This document shows positions 24,422 to 57,715 of a stretch of 64,000 bases of DNA, one piece after another. The DNA is taken from sequence record PQ287649.1, one strand, 5' to 3'. The DNA is from Pseudomonas phage HHBS47_1. Each line of letters begins with the position of its first letter. The stretch's first letter is position 1. A model generated the notes under the pieces. It did no database searches. It had not been told where the DNA came from and saw nothing but the letters and a program-made list of their open reading frames with translations. Position numbers and translations under genes: made by a program.

Positions 24422-24447
24422 AAACCTACATTATTCATTTGCAAGGA
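24422..24447 (+). promoter_or_regulatory. Phage promoter-like motif, instance 1 (AAACCTACATTATTCATTTGCAAGGA)
   Basis: Member of a nine-copy intergenic motif family. Lies 10 nt upstream of the 24457 start codon. Confidence 0.5.
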
Positions 24448-24456
24448 ATACTTCTG

Positions 24457-24750
24457 ATGAACGTTCAACTCCCACGATCGGTTACTCTGGACGCCTATAT
24501 TCAGCCGGACGGTACACTTATGCTGGGGCCGGGTCAGGCTAAAGTGACCATTAATTACCATTCGGATCCTCAAGAATCCATTAATGCGTGCATTGTCTTT
24601 GGAGGGGCGATGCAAGCGATTGTGACCTTTGATGAAACCGGTCAGACCCCTGTGAGTTATACGCTGTTGAATCCAGGGGGGGATTACACCGTTGAGCAGT
24701 CGGTTCTTAACATCTTGTCCTATTTCGGAGTCAGTGCTCCGATGAACTAG
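24457..24750 (+). CDS. Hypothetical small protein (97 aa)
   Basis: ATG at 24457 with AAGGA 9 nt upstream. The track ORF begins at a TTG at 24439. Confidence 0.55.
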   Translation: MNVQLPRSVTLDAYIQPDGTLMLGPGQAKVTINYHSDPQESINACIVFGGAMQAIVTFDETGQTPVSYTLLNPGGDYTVEQSVLNILSYFGVSAPMN

Positions 24751-24762
24751 GAGTCATGAGTC

Positions 24763-25203
24763 ATGAACAAAGCTGAAGTGATAGAACGGTACCGCGAACT
24801 GGTCGAAGACCTCGCCCTCCCGCCGCATCAGGTGATCCTGTCGGCGGGTGCCGCCTTGGTGGTAATGGGCATCCGAGAGGAAACAAGCGACCTCGATGTG
24901 GATGTCCCTACCAGTGTGTTCAACTGGGCGAGTAAAAAGTTCGGGGTTATCGAGAACGAAACCGTGAATAAACGGGTTCAATACACTCCCCTGGTCGATC
25001 TCCATGAATACGACGAGAACACGGGAGTGGTGTGTATTGAGGGGGTGTGGTTGTACAGCCCTACGGAGTTACTGAAACAGAAACACTGGCTCACGAAACT
25101 GGCTGATCGAACGGACGTTAAGACCCAACAGGATCACCGTGATATCCGCCAACTGGAAACGCTCACTCAGTCTCAACCATTCACTGCACGCGCATTGTTG
25201 TAA
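24763..25203 (+). CDS. Small nucleotidyltransferase-fold protein (LnuA/minimal NTase-like), paralog A
   Basis: AGGAG RBS. Motif ILSAGAALVVMGIREETSDLDVDV fits the Pol-beta-type NTase signature (G..G..R..D-x-D). Size (146 aa) matches LnuA-type enzymes. Confidence 0.5.
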   Translation: MNKAEVIERYRELVEDLALPPHQVILSAGAALVVMGIREETSDLDVDVPTSVFNWASKKFGVIENETVNKRVQYTPLVDLHEYDENTGVVCIEGVWLYSPTELLKQKHWLTKLADRTDVKTQQDHRDIRQLETLTQSQPFTARALL

Positions 25204-25217
25204 GGTTAGGTTACGGT

Positions 25218-25712
25218 ATGTTTTACAGTCAATTGGAAGTGGTAGAAGCCGTTCAACGGTTCTCTGAGGCTCATAACACCCCTTTGGATAAGATCGCTAT
25301 TGGCGGGGGTGGAGCTATCATGCTCATGGGGGGTCGTGAAACCACCTATGATTTGAACATTTGGGTGGAGAGTCCGTTCTTTGAACGCATTGCTGAAACC
25401 CAGAACGCTCTCCTCAGTCCTATGAGAGACAATGTGTTCCACATTGAAACGGTTATTGATTCCATGGATCAAACCGATCACGTCACCACACGTCGCCATT
25501 ACTGGGTGCGTAAACGTAACCTCTATTTCCCCACTGTTCCTGTTAAGCTGGATCAATGTCCTGAAGTCTACATCTTCGATGCGATGTCACTGTTGATTCA
25601 GAAACGTGGGAGCTACAGTCGCCCTGAACGAGGACTCCGTCGTAAACAGGATTACAGCGACATCTGTTTCTTGAATGCGTTGTTAAAGGAAGAACACAAA
25701 GTCAGGGCTTAA
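25218..25712 (+). CDS. NTase-fold paralog B (164 aa) with DxN in place of DxD
   Basis: IAIGGGGAIMLMGGRETTYDLNIWV aligns with paralog A. The second acidic residue is Asn. Confidence 0.5.
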   Translation: MFYSQLEVVEAVQRFSEAHNTPLDKIAIGGGGAIMLMGGRETTYDLNIWVESPFFERIAETQNALLSPMRDNVFHIETVIDSMDQTDHVTTRRHYWVRKRNLYFPTVPVKLDQCPEVYIFDAMSLLIQKRGSYSRPERGLRRKQDYSDICFLNALLKEEHKVRA

Positions 25713-25722
25713 CCTTAGGACA

Positions 25723-25748
25723 GTACCAGGGGATCACTCCCCTGGTAC
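25723..25748 (+). terminator. Rho-independent terminator
   Basis: GTACCAGGGGA-tcac-TCCCCTGGTAC hairpin followed by a pyrimidine-rich tract. Confidence 0.65.
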
Positions 25749-25780
25749 GTCTTCCTCCTTATACGGTTTAGGAGATTACA

Positions 25781-56424: not shown

Positions 56425-56457
56425 CGCAACATTCATTCCTTTTTGGAGGTTTACGCC

Positions 56458-56937
56458 ATGGCTAAACAATCGAACTTCACCATCGCCAACTACAACGCCG
56501 TCCTGGAAGCTGTTAAAGCCAACAACGGTTATGTGGTCGACGTTCACAACAATCGTCGCACTCCGTACCGTGCGGCTGGCATCGCTGCTCTGGTGAAGGG
56601 CGAAAGGGTTACCCCGGTGCTGCTGTGCCATGGTTCCTACTTCTGCCTGAACTCGCTGCACAAGGAAGCCGATGGTTCGGTGACCCTCTCCAGCTGGTCG
56701 GTCGGTGTTACCATCTTCACCCACCAACACGGTGGGCTGGAAGAAGCGATCCAAGCCTACAACAAGGAGCAATCCGAGTGGGCGTTGTCGGGTGGTCAAC
56801 TGATGCATGTACGCATCTTCGACTACACCGACGAAACCGCACCTGTGTTCGGCGAGCCAGTTGATCTGGCAGGCGAAGTCGTGGGTGCGCTGGCAGCACA
56901 AGAGCCGATCGCCAAGGTCGACATCCCTGCTCAATAA
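56458..56937 (+). CDS. Hypothetical protein (159 aa), GC-rich and codon-biased
   Basis: ATG at 56458 with GGAGG RBS. Strong preference for C/G-ending codons relative to neighbours. Confidence 0.7.
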   Translation: MAKQSNFTIANYNAVLEAVKANNGYVVDVHNNRRTPYRAAGIAALVKGERVTPVLLCHGSYFCLNSLHKEADGSVTLSSWSVGVTIFTHQHGGLEEAIQAYNKEQSEWALSGGQLMHVRIFDYTDETAPVFGEPVDLAGEVVGALAAQEPIAKVDIPAQ

Positions 56938-56982
56938 CGAGCAGTTTTCTGTACGTAATCTGACTTCATTAGGAGCAATGCC

Positions 56983-57390
56983 ATGAGTAATGTAATGCAC
57001 GTTAGCACCATCGCCGGTCGTACCGCCCTGACGGTGATCACACCCGACGACCTGCCGGTTACCAACTGGATGGAAAATGTGCTTGCTGCACAGATCCAGA
57101 AAGTGGTTGACGAAGGTAAGGGTTGGCCCAACGACGCCGAGTTCAAGGTGGAGGTTACCTACCACACTTGGCCACAGGGTTGGGACCGGGAAGTGTACAC
57201 GCACTTCTTTACCAACCGCGCCGAGCTGGACTCCTACATCAAGGACCAGCACGAGTGGGCCCGTTGTGAGGACAACATGGTGAAGATCAAGATCTACAAC
57301 TGGGACCTCGGTCCGAACTTCATGGAAACTCGTGAGTTCGGTGGTCCTGAGTTGTGGAACAGCCCTCTGAGCCGTCCTTACTTGACGTAA
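56983..57390 (+). CDS. Hypothetical protein (135 aa), GC-rich and codon-biased
   Basis: AGGAG RBS. Followed by a strong terminator. Confidence 0.7.
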   Translation: MSNVMHVSTIAGRTALTVITPDDLPVTNWMENVLAAQIQKVVDEGKGWPNDAEFKVEVTYHTWPQGWDREVYTHFFTNRAELDSYIKDQHEWARCEDNMVKIKIYNWDLGPNFMETREFGGPELWNSPLSRPYLT

Positions 57391-57398
57391 GGCTAGCG

Positions 57399-57446
57399 CT
57401 ACCTCCCTGCCACTGGCAGGGAGGTAGTACTCCTTTTATTTTTTGC
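57399..57446 (+). terminator. Strong rho-independent terminator
   Basis: CTACCTCCCTGCC-act-GGCAGGGAGGTAG hairpin followed by TACTCCTTTTATTTTTTGC. Confidence 0.85.
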
Positions 57447-57490
57447 TTCATTTCCATTTTTATAGTTCACTCAACACAACGAGCAAAGTA

Positions 57491-57631
57491 ATGCCTGACA
57501 CTAACAACGGTCCTGTGGAAATAAAGATGGAACGTGTGCAGTTCAAAAGAATAAAAGTAAGGGGTCTTCGTAAATTCTGGTTACTCATCAAACGCTTACT
57601 GAGTAAGGACACCGATTATAAGAACACTTGA
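57491..57631 (+). CDS. Small basic hypothetical protein (46 aa)
   Basis: ATG at 57491. K/R-rich peptide. Weak RBS. Confidence 0.3.
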   Translation: MPDTNNGPVEIKMERVQFKRIKVRGLRKFWLLIKRLLSKDTDYKNT

Positions 57632-57679
57632 CGAACGCATGGCTAAGTCAATGGAACTAAGGGTAATTAACTTCTAGTT

Positions 57680-57715
57680 GTAATCAGGTCTATATTACCT
57701 TTGTGTATATTAAGG
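57680..57715 (+). promoter_or_regulatory. Promoter-like motif instance 9 with dyad GTAATCAGGTCTATATTAC (candidate autoregulatory operator) upstream of the RHH gene
   Basis: GTAATCAGGTCTATATTACCTTTGTGTATATTAAGG. Lies 52 nt upstream of the 57767 start. Confidence 0.5.

What the first reader, a model, noticed from the sequence alone, without database searches (positions are those of the whole stretch)
24422..57715. Nine-copy phage-specific promoter-like motif, some copies fused to dyad-symmetric operator-like sequences
Nine intergenic sites contain a conserved ~25-nt element with core AAACCTACAT.ATT...GTG.A. They sit at 24422, 31660, 33073, 34758, 40965, 43574, 55882, 56391 and 57680. All are on the + strand, 10 to 60 nt upstream of a start codon and usually just downstream of a terminator. 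Several copies end in ATTAGGGTGA, which resembles the +1 GGG region of single-subunit RNAP promoters. Others carry internal palindromes: ATTCATATGAAT, ATTAC-N6-GTAAT, and GTAAT-N9-ATTAC in the two longest copies. The motif does not match sigma70 consensus and is absent from the structural-gene module. It may define a phage-specific transcription class (own RNAP or sigma-like factor), layered with binding sites for a dimeric regulator.
Basis: seen in the sequence. Interest (0 to 1): 0.75.

Follow-up and report, generated by a model that had tools for sequence, protein, structure and literature searches.

The report
Jumbo-phage EL early promoters, already annotated
The nine repeated sequences are real and are most likely the start signals that a giant Pseudomonas phage (an EL relative) uses to switch on its early genes with the RNA polymerase it carries in its own particle. 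They were already annotated in phage EL in 2005, and the claimed "operator" palindromes are no more than chance.

Summary
The window is a 96-98% relative of Pseudomonas jumbo phage EL (Elvirus, phiKZ-like). All nine sites exist, on the + strand and intergenic. They score 17-32 bits, against a mean of 12.5 (largest 20.1) for the best score in each of 30 shuffled windows. Aligned, they read T-rich (-24..-20), ARRyCTAyATTAy (-19..-7), N6, then an invariant G (predicted +1).

Four of the nine coincide with "putative phage promoter" features in the original EL GenBank record. A genome-wide scan finds 22 strong sites in EL, all on the + strand and 21 of them intergenic. They head non-structural gene clusters, including those for the nuclear shell protein, PhuZ and the non-virion RNA polymerase subunits.

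The same element sits at orthologous positions in Erwinia phage RisingSun and Shewanella phage FishSpeaker. It also aligns in register with phiKZ early promoters (TATATTAC-N6-G) and the TSS-mapped AR9 early promoters (TATATTAT-N6-G).

Best explanation: early promoters read by the virion-packaged multisubunit RNA polymerase, not by a T7-like enzyme.

The palindromes do not exceed what the motif's own composition predicts, and their centres scatter. Only 4 of 9 sites follow a terminator-like hairpin.

Verdict: real, but already known; low interest.

The parts
24417..24445 (+). Early-promoter copy 1 (-24..+5); predicted +1 G at 24441; heads the gp119 homologue and the long cluster running to the gp152 homologue. 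Corresponds to the EL feature 'putative phage promoter' at 132472-132490.
   Evidence: 30.2 bits; register; EL annotation; invariant across 6 Elvirus genomes
31655..31683 (+). Early-promoter copy 2; +1 G at 31679; upstream of the gp127 homologue (31748-32962). Not annotated in EL. The T-rich block is degenerate (GAAAC).
   Evidence: 24.1 bits; EL 139699 scores 26.2 bits; hairpin 31593-31622 lies upstream
33067..33095 (+). Early-promoter copy 3; +1 G at 33091; upstream of the gp128 homologue. Not annotated in EL. Lies 13 nt after a 19-bp terminator-like hairpin (33012-33053).
   Evidence: 26.7 bits
34753..34781 (+). Early-promoter copy 4; +1 G at 34777; upstream of the gp132 homologue (34822-35226). 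Corresponds to the EL feature at 142913-142931. Contains the chance palindrome ATTCATATGAAT.
   Evidence: 29.8 bits
40960..40988 (+). Early-promoter copy 5 (CCTATATTAC variant); +1 G at 40984; upstream of the GroEL-like chaperonin (41021-42697). Not annotated in EL.
   Evidence: 28.1 bits; PHROG 5725 chaperonin, E=2.5e-168
43569..43597 (+). Early-promoter copy 6; +1 G at 43593; upstream of the gp148 homologue. Corresponds to the EL feature at 151700-151718.
   Evidence: 32.4 bits; hairpin 43503-43534 lies upstream
55877..55905 (+). Early-promoter copy 7; +1 G at 55901. It is the first + strand signal after the minus-strand tail-fibre block and lies upstream of the gp159 homologue. Corresponds to the EL feature at 164008-164026.
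   Evidence: 32.0 bits
56392..56420 (+). Early-promoter copy 8, weak variant (cAGGTCTGTATTAC); +1 G at 56416; upstream of the gp161 homologue. Not annotated in EL.
   Evidence: 17.4 bits in the window; 26.6 bits in EL, where -13 is A; the same cAGGTCTATAT variant occurs in RisingSun and FishSpeaker
57681..57709 (+). Early-promoter copy 9, variant (cAGGTCTATATTAC); +1 G at 57705; upstream of the Arc-like gp163 homologue (57758-58114). Not annotated in EL.
   Evidence: 24.6 bits

Best explanation
The nine elements are early-gene promoters of an EL-like chimallivirus (a phiKZ-related jumbo phage). They are most likely recognised by the multisubunit virion RNA polymerase (vRNAP), which is packaged in the capsid and injected with the DNA.

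Anatomy relative to the predicted start:
- a weak -30 block (tAg)
- a T-rich block at -24..-20
- A-R-R-y-C at -19..-15
- the -10-centred element TAyATTAy at -14..-7
- a 6-nt spacer ending in T
- an invariant G, the predicted +1
- a preferred initial transcribed sequence, G-A-A-T.

Inferred sequence of events: on injection, vRNAP initiates at these sites without any new protein synthesis. It transcribes rightward, co-directional clusters of non-structural genes. In the window these are the gp119-gp152 and gp159-gp164 homologues (ligase, RNase H, chaperonin and many small ORFs). Elsewhere in the genome they include the nuclear-shell protein, PhuZ and the non-virion RNAP subunits, which then take over middle and late transcription. 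Structural-gene blocks lack the motif.

Shown here: motif statistics, strand and position bias, conservation within the genus and at orthologous positions in two other genera, register-locked similarity to phiKZ early-promoter sequences, and the link to nvRNAP genes.

Inferred: The palindromes are by-products of the ATTAy element facing the conserved +2..+4 AAT or a TAAT-like T-rich block.
For: (1) Identity. The window is 96-98% identical to phage EL and its relatives. The EL records annotate the 19-mer ATTTTAAACCTACATTATT as 'putative phage promoter' at nine places, four of them at window sites.

(2) Statistics. A matrix scan of EL gives 22 sites of at least 23.7 bits. All are on the + strand. 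Of these, 21 are intergenic in a genome that is 92.4% coding, and 20 of the 21 lie 35-117 nt upstream of a + strand start. For the window scan. AAACCTA and TATATTA are among the top non-homopolymeric intergenic 7-mers found de novo.

(3) Invariant G. It lies 6 nt after ATTAy in all 9 window sites and in all nine annotated EL sites. This is the geometry of the TSS-mapped AR9 early promoters, AAATATATATTAT-N6-G+1. PMC5312081 states that phiKZ and phiR1-37 have the same arrangement.

(4) phiKZ. TATATTAC is one of the three most frequent intergenic 8-mers in phiKZ (tied at 7 with two T-runs), and it occurs as TTTaA...TATATTAC-N6-G, including upstream of PHIKZ054. PMC8244752 reports that PHIKZ054 carries the early motif at its primary TSS and describes the motif as an extended -10 box plus a T-rich block upstream of -19. 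Matrix correlation between EL and phiKZ is 0.61 at offset 0 only (0 of 5000 permutations reached it). Using only the columns not involved in picking the phiKZ sites (-32..-15), it is 0.42 (p=0.005).

(5) Phylogenetic footprint. RisingSun (ChmA 48% aa identity) and FishSpeaker (37%) carry the element on the coding strand upstream of ChmA, PhuZ or HslV, the gp33 homologue and the RNAP beta genes. Their best minus-strand score is 8.3 bits or less. Matrix correlations with EL are 0.81 and 0.74.

(6) Cascade logic. EL gp24, gp38 and gp39 are homologues of phiKZ nvRNAP subunits gp55, gp71-73 and gp74, and all lie in motif-headed clusters. The homologue of vRNAP subunit gp80 (EL gp44) has no motif.

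(7) Selection. Across 6 Elvirus genomes, core columns vary in 2 of 117 cases and the T-rich block in 0 of 45, against 6.6% in the flanks (p=0.03).

(8) Sigma-70-like hexamer pairs are depleted in 24000-44000: 5 found against 19.7+-4.6 expected.
Against: No transcription start site, timing or polymerase-dependence data for EL or its relatives were found in the searchable library. The assignment of +1, of 'early', and of vRNAP rather than nvRNAP therefore rests on homology with phiKZ and AR9.

The EL core is less AT-rich (AAACCTAC) than the published description of vRNAP promoters.

The phiKZ sites used for the matrix comparison were picked with a regex resembling the EL -14..+1 region, so that part of the similarity is partly circular. 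The non-circular upstream-only test is weaker (0.42; the random-position null reached 0.55 at most in 2000 sets).

The key primary papers could not be read: Hertveldt 2005, Ceyssens 2014, Lavysh 2016 and Cornelissen 2012.

The factor that gives vRNAP its promoter specificity is unknown in any phage.
Confidence: 0.85

Rival explanations
1. They are promoters for the non-virion RNAP (a middle class), or are used by both phage polymerases, rather than vRNAP early promoters.
For: No timing data exist for EL. PHIKZ054 in phiKZ has both an early and a middle promoter. In 201phi2-1, some nvRNAP genes are read from middle or late promoters. Some genes downstream (chaperonin, ligase) would also be useful later in infection.
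Against: The phiKZ and 201phi2-1 middle motifs are weak and lie around -22 to -24, and late promoters are only TATG. In this phage group only the early class is strongly conserved and predictable from sequence. The EL motif matches the early class in sequence and register. It precedes the nvRNAP genes themselves.
Confidence: 0.07
2. A subset of the copies also carries an operator for a dimeric regulator. The candidates are the two GTAAT-N9-ATTAC copies at 56391 and 57680, and the regulator could be the Arc-like ribbon-helix-helix protein encoded just downstream of the second copy.
For: The gp163 homologue (57758-58114) has an Arc-like RHH domain (E about 1e-11 to 1e-14). GTAAT-N9-ATTAC occurs in EL only at these two promoters. 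The dyad is kept in all Elvirus genomes examined.
Against: Dyads overall are not enriched. The two copies are similar to each other over about 45 nt, so they are not independent. GTAATC occupies the position of the degenerate T-rich block, and ATTAC is the promoter's own -10 element. In the window, chance reaches the observed number of hits in 18 of 100 shuffles. The Arc-like gene is absent from RisingSun and FishSpeaker, which still carry the cAGGTCTATAT variant without GTAAT. The Elvirus genomes are about 97% identical, so conservation there is uninformative.
Confidence: 0.05
3. They are host sigma-70 promoters of an unusual, extended -10 type.
For: Positions -12..-7 read CATTAT or TATTAC, keeping A-11 and T-7, at a normal distance from a purine start. 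The consensus scan reports one weak 9/12 match overlapping copy 9 (57667-57696).
Against: There is no -35 hexamer and no TG at -15/-14, and 8 of 9 sites are not called by the sigma-70 scan. Sigma-70-like pairs are depleted. The element is conserved in phages of Pseudomonas, Erwinia and Shewanella, and matches phiKZ promoters, whose use is rifampicin-independent according to the literature.
Confidence: 0.02
4. They are not transcription signals at all, but recombination, replication or packaging-related repeats.
For: This is a repeated 25-30-nt element in a phage genome. Positions -9, -7 and -6 toggle between copies and between isolates, which could suggest copy-to-copy exchange.
Against: The element keeps a strict single orientation matching the downstream genes and a fixed position 35-117 nt before start codons. 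It is absent from minus-strand and structural blocks. It occupies orthologous positions before the same genes in distant relatives.
Confidence: 0.01

Closest known systems
'Putative phage promoter' features of Pseudomonas phage EL (GenBank AJ697969 / NC_007623; Hertveldt et al. 2005 genome submission)
   Same: Same element in a 96-98% identical genome. The annotated 19-mer ATTTTAAACCTACATTATT at EL 132472, 142913, 151700 and 164008 corresponds to window copies 1, 4, 6 and 7.
   Different: The record lists only 9 sites genome-wide. It does not include the downstream invariant G, or the variant copies 2, 3, 5, 8 and 9 of the window. My scan adds 12 further intergenic sites in EL: 23, 17574, 26010, 41002, 84861, 95951, 139699, 141109, 149102, 164546, 165835 and 206526. 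Whether later papers (Lavysh 2016) list them could not be checked.
phiKZ early promoters recognised by the virion RNAP (28-32 sites; Ceyssens 2014; Wicke 2021, PMC8244752)
   Same: Both have a T-rich block upstream of -19, the -10-centred element TAyATTAy at -14..-7, a 6-nt spacer, G at the predicted +1, and an A/T-rich start. Both sit upstream of the shell protein gene and early clusters, strand-specific and intergenic.
   Different: phiKZ reads TTTaAgat/aacagTATATTAC. EL prefers TTTyAAACCTACATTAT (C at -12 and T at -7 in most copies; more G+C at -16/-15). phiKZ start sites are experimentally mapped; EL start sites are not.
Bacillus phage AR9 early promoters, AAATATATATTAT-(6N)-G+1 (PMC5312081)
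   Same: Identical ATTAT-N6-G geometry. The AR9 sites are TSS-mapped, chloramphenicol-independent and attributed to vRNAP.
   Different: AR9 has a uracil-containing genome, forms no nucleus, and has a fully AT upstream half. It is a distant lineage.
T7/SP6-type single-subunit RNAP promoters
   Same: Both are phage-specific, strongly conserved elements of about 20-25 nt placed before gene clusters, with a G start.
   Different: In T7-type promoters the +1..+3 GGG/GGA is part of the conserved core. Here the GGG lies at -5..-3 and is variable. The polymerases encoded by EL are split multisubunit beta/beta' enzymes.

Membership tests
vRNAP early promoters of phiKZ-related (Chimalliviridae-type) jumbo phages | A strongly conserved motif, detectable from sequence alone, that is strand-specific and intergenic and lies upstream of non-structural gene clusters | tested here: met
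   Window: 9 of 9 sites on the + strand at 17-32 bits, against a largest best score of 20.1 in 30 shuffles. EL: 22 sites, all on the + strand, 21 intergenic in a genome that is 92.4% coding. De novo 7-mers.
vRNAP early promoters of phiKZ-related (Chimalliviridae-type) jumbo phages | A -10-centred A/T-rich element (TATATTAC/T type) with a conserved purine start 6 nt downstream | tested here: met
   TAyATTAy lies at -14..-7, and G is invariant 6 nt later in 9 of 9 window sites and in all nine annotated EL sites. That the G is the real start was not testable.
vRNAP early promoters of phiKZ-related (Chimalliviridae-type) jumbo phages | A T-rich block upstream of about -19 and further conservation near -30 | tested here: met
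   Consensus tAg....TtTcA at -30..-19. Upstream-only correlation with phiKZ is 0.42, p=0.005. Literature description.
vRNAP early promoters of phiKZ-related (Chimalliviridae-type) jumbo phages | The genome encodes two sets of split beta/beta' RNAP subunits, one of them virion-associated | tested here: met
   Tested on EL, not on the window itself, which holds none of these genes. EL has eight annotated RNAP beta genes. gp24, gp38 and gp39 match phiKZ nvRNAP gp55, gp71-73 and gp74; gp44 matches vRNAP gp80; subunit lists from PMC8287921. Virion packaging in EL was not tested here.
vRNAP early promoters of phiKZ-related (Chimalliviridae-type) jumbo phages | nvRNAP subunit genes and other early functions (shell protein) lie downstream of the motif | tested here: met
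   EL sites at 26010 (ChmA, then gp24) and 41002 (gp37, gp38, gp39). RisingSun and FishSpeaker carry sites directly upstream of ChmA and the RNAP beta genes.
vRNAP early promoters of phiKZ-related (Chimalliviridae-type) jumbo phages | Transcripts start there in the first minutes of infection, independent of new protein synthesis and of host RNAP (rifampicin-resistant) | not testable with these tools
   No EL or Elvirus transcriptome or TSS data were found.
T7-like single-subunit RNAP promoters | An invariant initiating GGG/GGA within a conserved -17..+6 core, and a single-subunit RNAP gene in the genome | tested here: not met
   GGG is present in only 4 of 9 copies, at -5..-3. No single-subunit RNAP is annotated among the 201 EL genes. 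This rests on annotation only; no dedicated search was run.
Sigma-70 host promoters | TTGACA-like and TATAAT-like hexamers 16-18 nt apart | tested here: not met
   Only copy 9 overlaps a weak 9/12 match on the + strand. Such matches are depleted in the region: 5 found against 19.7+-4.6 expected.
Operator for a dimeric regulator overlapping the promoter | Dyad symmetry beyond chance, with a common half-site and a fixed centre relative to the promoter | tested here: not met
   Column-permutation test: p=0.06-0.8 for the window and 0.26-0.58 for EL. Centres range from -23 to +12, and half-sites differ. For the single pair 56391/57680 the test is inconclusive.

The most novel reading that the evidence does not exclude
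The two neighbouring variant promoters (56392-56420 and 57681-57709) share GTAAT-N9-ATTAC. The second one drives an Elvirus-specific Arc-like ribbon-helix-helix gene. They could form a small autoregulated module in which a phage repressor shuts off selected vRNAP early promoters. That would be the first repressor-controlled virion-RNAP promoter in a nucleus-forming jumbo phage. A weaker additional possibility is that the recurrent toggling of positions -9, -7 and -6 between isolates reflects tuning of promoter strength, or gene conversion between copies.
Probability: 0.06. Interest if true: 0.5.

Novelty: already known. Interest (0 to 1): 0.15.

Why it matters
As it stands, this result is housekeeping. 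It shows that a tool-free reader can rediscover a phage's own promoter class. It adds 12 intergenic sites to the nine annotated in EL (22 strong sites in all, one of them inside a gene) and gives the promoter a defined register (predicted +1 G). It also shows that the element is conserved at orthologous positions in Erwinia and Shewanella relatives and is homologous to the phiKZ early promoter.

That is useful for annotating Elvirus-like therapeutic phages. It gives precise predictions for mapping start sites. It also supplies a small comparative set (invariant positions against freely toggling ones) for anyone studying how the still-uncharacterised virion RNAP recognises promoters. It does not reveal a new transcription mechanism or a new regulatory layer.

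Tried and rejected
(1) Operator or dyad layer. I tested the best perfect inverted repeat in -30..+20 against 1000 column permutations and found no excess. The GTAAT-N9-ATTAC pattern is not beyond chance in the window.

(2) N4-type hairpin promoter idea. Rejected because the dyads have no fixed centre or loop.

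(3) Two discrete promoter subclasses (AAACCTACAT against cAGGTCTATAT). On listing all 21 intergenic EL sites, positions -19..-15 form a continuum (A-R-R-y-C), not two classes. The cAGGTCTATAT variant is nevertheless shared with RisingSun and FishSpeaker.

(4) Literal-sequence literature search for AAACCTACAT returned only unrelated primer hits.

(5) Papers not held: Hertveldt 2005, Ceyssens 2014 (PMC4178840), Cornelissen 2012 (PMC3264338) and Lavysh 2016 (PMC13189113). No supplementary TSS tables were held for PMC8244752 or PMC10914365. The phiKZ sites were therefore derived from the genome sequence plus the papers' text.

(6) The RisingSun/Joad paper reports a different motif, inside structural genes, and not this promoter.

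(7) EL gp33 against phiKZ gp68 (the sigma-like nvRNAP subunit) gave no BLASTP hit at 1e-3, although the gene order suggests equivalence.

(8) Rfam and tRNA scans of the window found nothing.

(9) My first matrix iteration at a 10-bit threshold drifted and admitted coding-region noise. A Markov null gives 1-10 such hits per genome, so I used only sites of at least 23.7 bits.

Full report
SOURCE OF THE WINDOW. Megablast of window 24000-44000 against phage records gives 96-98% identity over the full length to Pseudomonas phages EL, phiRU, GXNNE2, IR-QUMS-PaBa1 and MIZ-Pa99, all Elvirus. EL is a 211-kb phiKZ-related jumbo phage. Window position plus about 108,050 gives the EL coordinate.

THE OBSERVATION. 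Aligning all nine reader sites shows a common register:
- a T-rich block at -24..-20
- A-R-R-y-C at -19..-15
- TAyATTAy at -14..-7
- a six-base spacer ending in T
- an invariant G.
The two 'longest copies' (56391 and 57680) are divergent members (GGTCTrTATTAC) of the same alignment.

With a 27-nt matrix, the nine sites score 17.4-32.4 bits, all on the + strand. The next best position in the window on either strand scores 9.6. Across 30 dinucleotide shuffles the best score averaged 12.5, and its largest value was 20.1. All nine sites are intergenic and lie 16-79 nt (measured from the G) before a start codon. None lies in the structural-gene blocks.

ALREADY ANNOTATED. Both the RefSeq record and the original EMBL submission of EL carry nine 19-nt 'regulatory / promoter: putative phage promoter' features with the sequence ATTTTAAACCTACATTATT. 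Four of them (EL 132472, 142913, 151700 and 164008) are window copies 1, 4, 6 and 7.

GENOME-WIDE PICTURE.
- I entered the 201 EL CDS coordinates (92.4% coding) and iterated the matrix on the whole genome.
- Twenty-two sites score at least 23.7 bits. All are on the + strand, and 21 are intergenic. Twenty of those lie 35-117 nt upstream of a + strand gene, and one lies 333 nt upstream.
- Weaker hits (10-19 bits) are in coding DNA and match the Markov-null count of 1-10 per genome, so I ignored them.
- All nine annotated EL sites carry the G six bases after ATTAy.
- An unseeded 7-mer enrichment of EL intergenic DNA returns, after T-runs and a terminator-stem word, AAACCTA (11 of 22 copies intergenic, p=8e-8) and TATATTA (7 of 10; reverse complement 0).
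- The sites head co-directional clusters gp1-4, gp15-21, gp23-43, gp74-75, gp79-102, gp119-152, gp159-164, gp179-181 and gp194-201.
- These clusters are replication, nucleotide-metabolism and small-ORF blocks. They include PhuZ (gp16), the nuclear shell protein ChmA (gp23) and the chaperonin (gp146). The first gene after each site carries no virion-structural annotation.

WHAT READS THE MOTIF.
- EL encodes eight split RNAP beta/beta' genes.
- BLASTP shows gp24 ~ phiKZ gp55, gp38 ~ gp71+gp73 and gp39 ~ gp74, which are non-virion RNAP subunits. It also shows gp44 ~ gp80, a virion RNAP subunit. Subunit lists come from PMC8287921.
- The nvRNAP homologues lie inside motif-headed clusters (sites 26010 and 41002). 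The vRNAP homologue is on the minus strand without a motif.
- The literature states that every RNAP-encoding jumbo phage has a strongly conserved, bioinformatically detectable motif upstream of early operons. Wherever tested (phiKZ, AR9, phiR1-37), this motif is the early promoter, attributed to the injected vRNAP (PMC7598289).
- The AR9 consensus is AAATATATATTAT-(6N)-G+1. The start is likewise 6 nt downstream in phiKZ and phiR1-37 (PMC5312081).
- The phiKZ motif is an extended -10 box plus a T-rich block upstream of -19, and PHIKZ054 carries it at its primary TSS (PMC8244752).
- 201phi2-1 early promoters are conserved at -10, -20 and -30 (PMC11512511).
- The EL element has exactly the ATTAy-N6-G geometry and the T-rich block.

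DIRECT COMPARISON WITH phiKZ.
- In phiKZ 1-50,000, TATATTAC is one of the three most frequent intergenic 8-mers (tied at 7 with two T-runs). It occurs as ...TTTaA....TATATTAC-N6-G, including 66 nt before PHIKZ054.
- The EL matrix itself scores these sites at 7-24 bits, and the highest-scoring ones are all on the + strand and intergenic.
- Over 1-100 kb, a loose pattern finds 13 + strand sites and 1 minus-strand site.
- Aligned on the G, the column-wise correlation of the EL and phiKZ matrices is 0.61 at offset 0 and at most 0.26 at any other offset. No permutation out of 5000 reached it.
- The phiKZ sites were chosen with a pattern covering -14..+1. I therefore repeated the test on -32..-15 only, which gave 0.42, p=0.005.
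- The consensus lines are: EL tAg....TtTcAaacCTA.ATtAtt.gtgt-G-aa, and phiKZ AAA..aaTTTaAgat.TATATtAC.aa.tT-G-aaatt.

PHYLOGENETIC FOOTPRINT.
- By ChmA similarity, the nearest non-Elvirus relatives are Erwinia phage RisingSun (48% aa) and Shewanella phage FishSpeaker (37%). Gene order around ChmA is conserved.
- The EL matrix finds 7 sites in each 42-kb segment, all on the coding strand. The best minus-strand score is 8.3 or less.
- The hits at orthologous positions are intergenic. They lie upstream of ChmA, PhuZ or HslV, the gp33 homologue and the RNAP beta pair.
- Matrix correlations with EL are 0.81 and 0.74.
- The element is thus kept across three host genera, which argues for a phage-encoded reader.

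VARIATION WITHIN ELVIRUS. Across six genomes, core columns vary in 2 of 117 cases and the T-rich block in 0 of 45, against 6.6% in the flanks (p=0.03). Positions -9, -7 and -6 vary in 7 of 27 cases (p=0.002).

THE REMAINING CLAIMS.
Terminators:
- Strong GC-rich hairpins lie 13-35 nt upstream of four of the nine sites, not of most.

T7-like GGG:
- The GGG is at -5..-3 and varies. By homology the start is the G after it.

Dyads:
- The quoted palindromes exist, but the best inverted repeat per site is no better than in column-permuted sets. For the window, p=0.23, 0.063 and 0.8; for the 21 intergenic EL sites, p=0.35, 0.26 and 0.58.
- Centres scatter from -23 to +12, and half-sites differ.
- One arm is always the promoter's own ATTAy. 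The other is the conserved +2..+4 AAT (consensus G-A-A-T in all four phages) or a TAAT-like T-rich block.
- GTAAT-N9-ATTAC occurs in EL only at the two neighbouring variant promoters. Those two promoters are similar to each other over about 45 nt, and the pattern is not beyond chance in the window.

The residual lead:
- The gene after copy 9 encodes an Arc-like ribbon-helix-helix protein.
- That gene is Elvirus-specific.
- I keep this as a low-probability novel reading.

CONCLUSION. The nine sites are real and functional-looking. They are best explained as early promoters for the virion-packaged multisubunit RNAP of an EL-like phage, homologous to the phiKZ early promoters (confidence about 0.85). 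The gap is the absence of any TSS or timing data for EL in the searchable literature.

The kind of element is known, and the element itself has been annotated in EL since 2005. My additions are the 12 extra intergenic EL sites, the predicted +1, the cross-genus conservation, and the rejection of the operator layer. Novelty: already known. Interest: low.

Noticed in passing
window 57758-58114 (+): The gp163 homologue, directly downstream of promoter copy 9, has an Arc-like ribbon-helix-helix DNA-binding domain (PHROGs 3178, 7906 and 38161; E about 1e-11 to 1e-14). RefSeq names it 'partition protein ATPase', while other records call it 'transcriptional regulator'. Homologues occur only in Elvirus and in unrelated phages from the Salmonella, Stx-converting and Pseudomonas SM1-like groups. 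None is found in RisingSun or FishSpeaker.
   Followed up: partly
window promoter positions -9, -7 and -6 of copies 2, 5, 6 and 7 (e.g. 31670-31673, 43584-43587, 55892-55895): Among six Elvirus genomes, these three low-information positions of the -10 element toggle (T/A/C, T/C) in 7 of 27 columns, against 6.6% in the flanks (p=0.002). In the window phage, copies 6 and 7 have become identical from -14 to +2 (TACATCATTAGGGTGA), unlike in EL. This could reflect tuning of promoter strength or copy-to-copy gene conversion.
   Followed up: partly
window 7845-7874, 20852-20875, 31593-31622, 43505-43532, 57399-57427, 58332-58357, 63850-63875 and others: Hairpins whose stems begin with CTACC and end with GGTAG: the pattern gives 10 matches against 1.3+-1.2 expected. 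GGTAGGG and CCCTACC are among the most intergenic-enriched 7-mers in EL. This looks like a conserved phage-specific terminator stem motif, comparable to the terminator motifs reported for phiKZ and 201phi2-1.
   Followed up: partly
window 24000-43999: Sigma-70-like hexamer pairs are depleted: 5 found against 19.7+-4.6 in shuffles. This fits a genome that does not use, or avoids, host RNA polymerase. The depletion is weaker in 43000-59000 (9 against 12.5+-4.0).
   Followed up: no
EL 57434 (outside the window; inside gene gp49): This is the one strong motif match (26.8 bits, ACACCTACATGACCTTCCTG) that lies inside a coding region, 191 nt before gp50. It could be an internal promoter or a chance hit.
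   Followed up: no
L010 11876-12531 (RisingSun, upstream of PhuZ) and L011 8425-9091 (FishSpeaker): These are unusually long (about 650 nt), G+C-rich non-coding regions. Each ends in a terminator-like hairpin. In RisingSun the early-promoter motif follows that hairpin. EL has a similar 650-nt gap at 17009-17658. Their content is unexplained (ncRNA, or a degraded or unannotated gene?).
   Followed up: no
Public records of relatives: Annotation inconsistencies among Elvirus records. Small ORFs (the gp143 and gp158 homologues) are labelled 'terminase large subunit'. MIZ-Pa99 is filed under Straboviridae although it is about 97% identical to EL.
   Followed up: no
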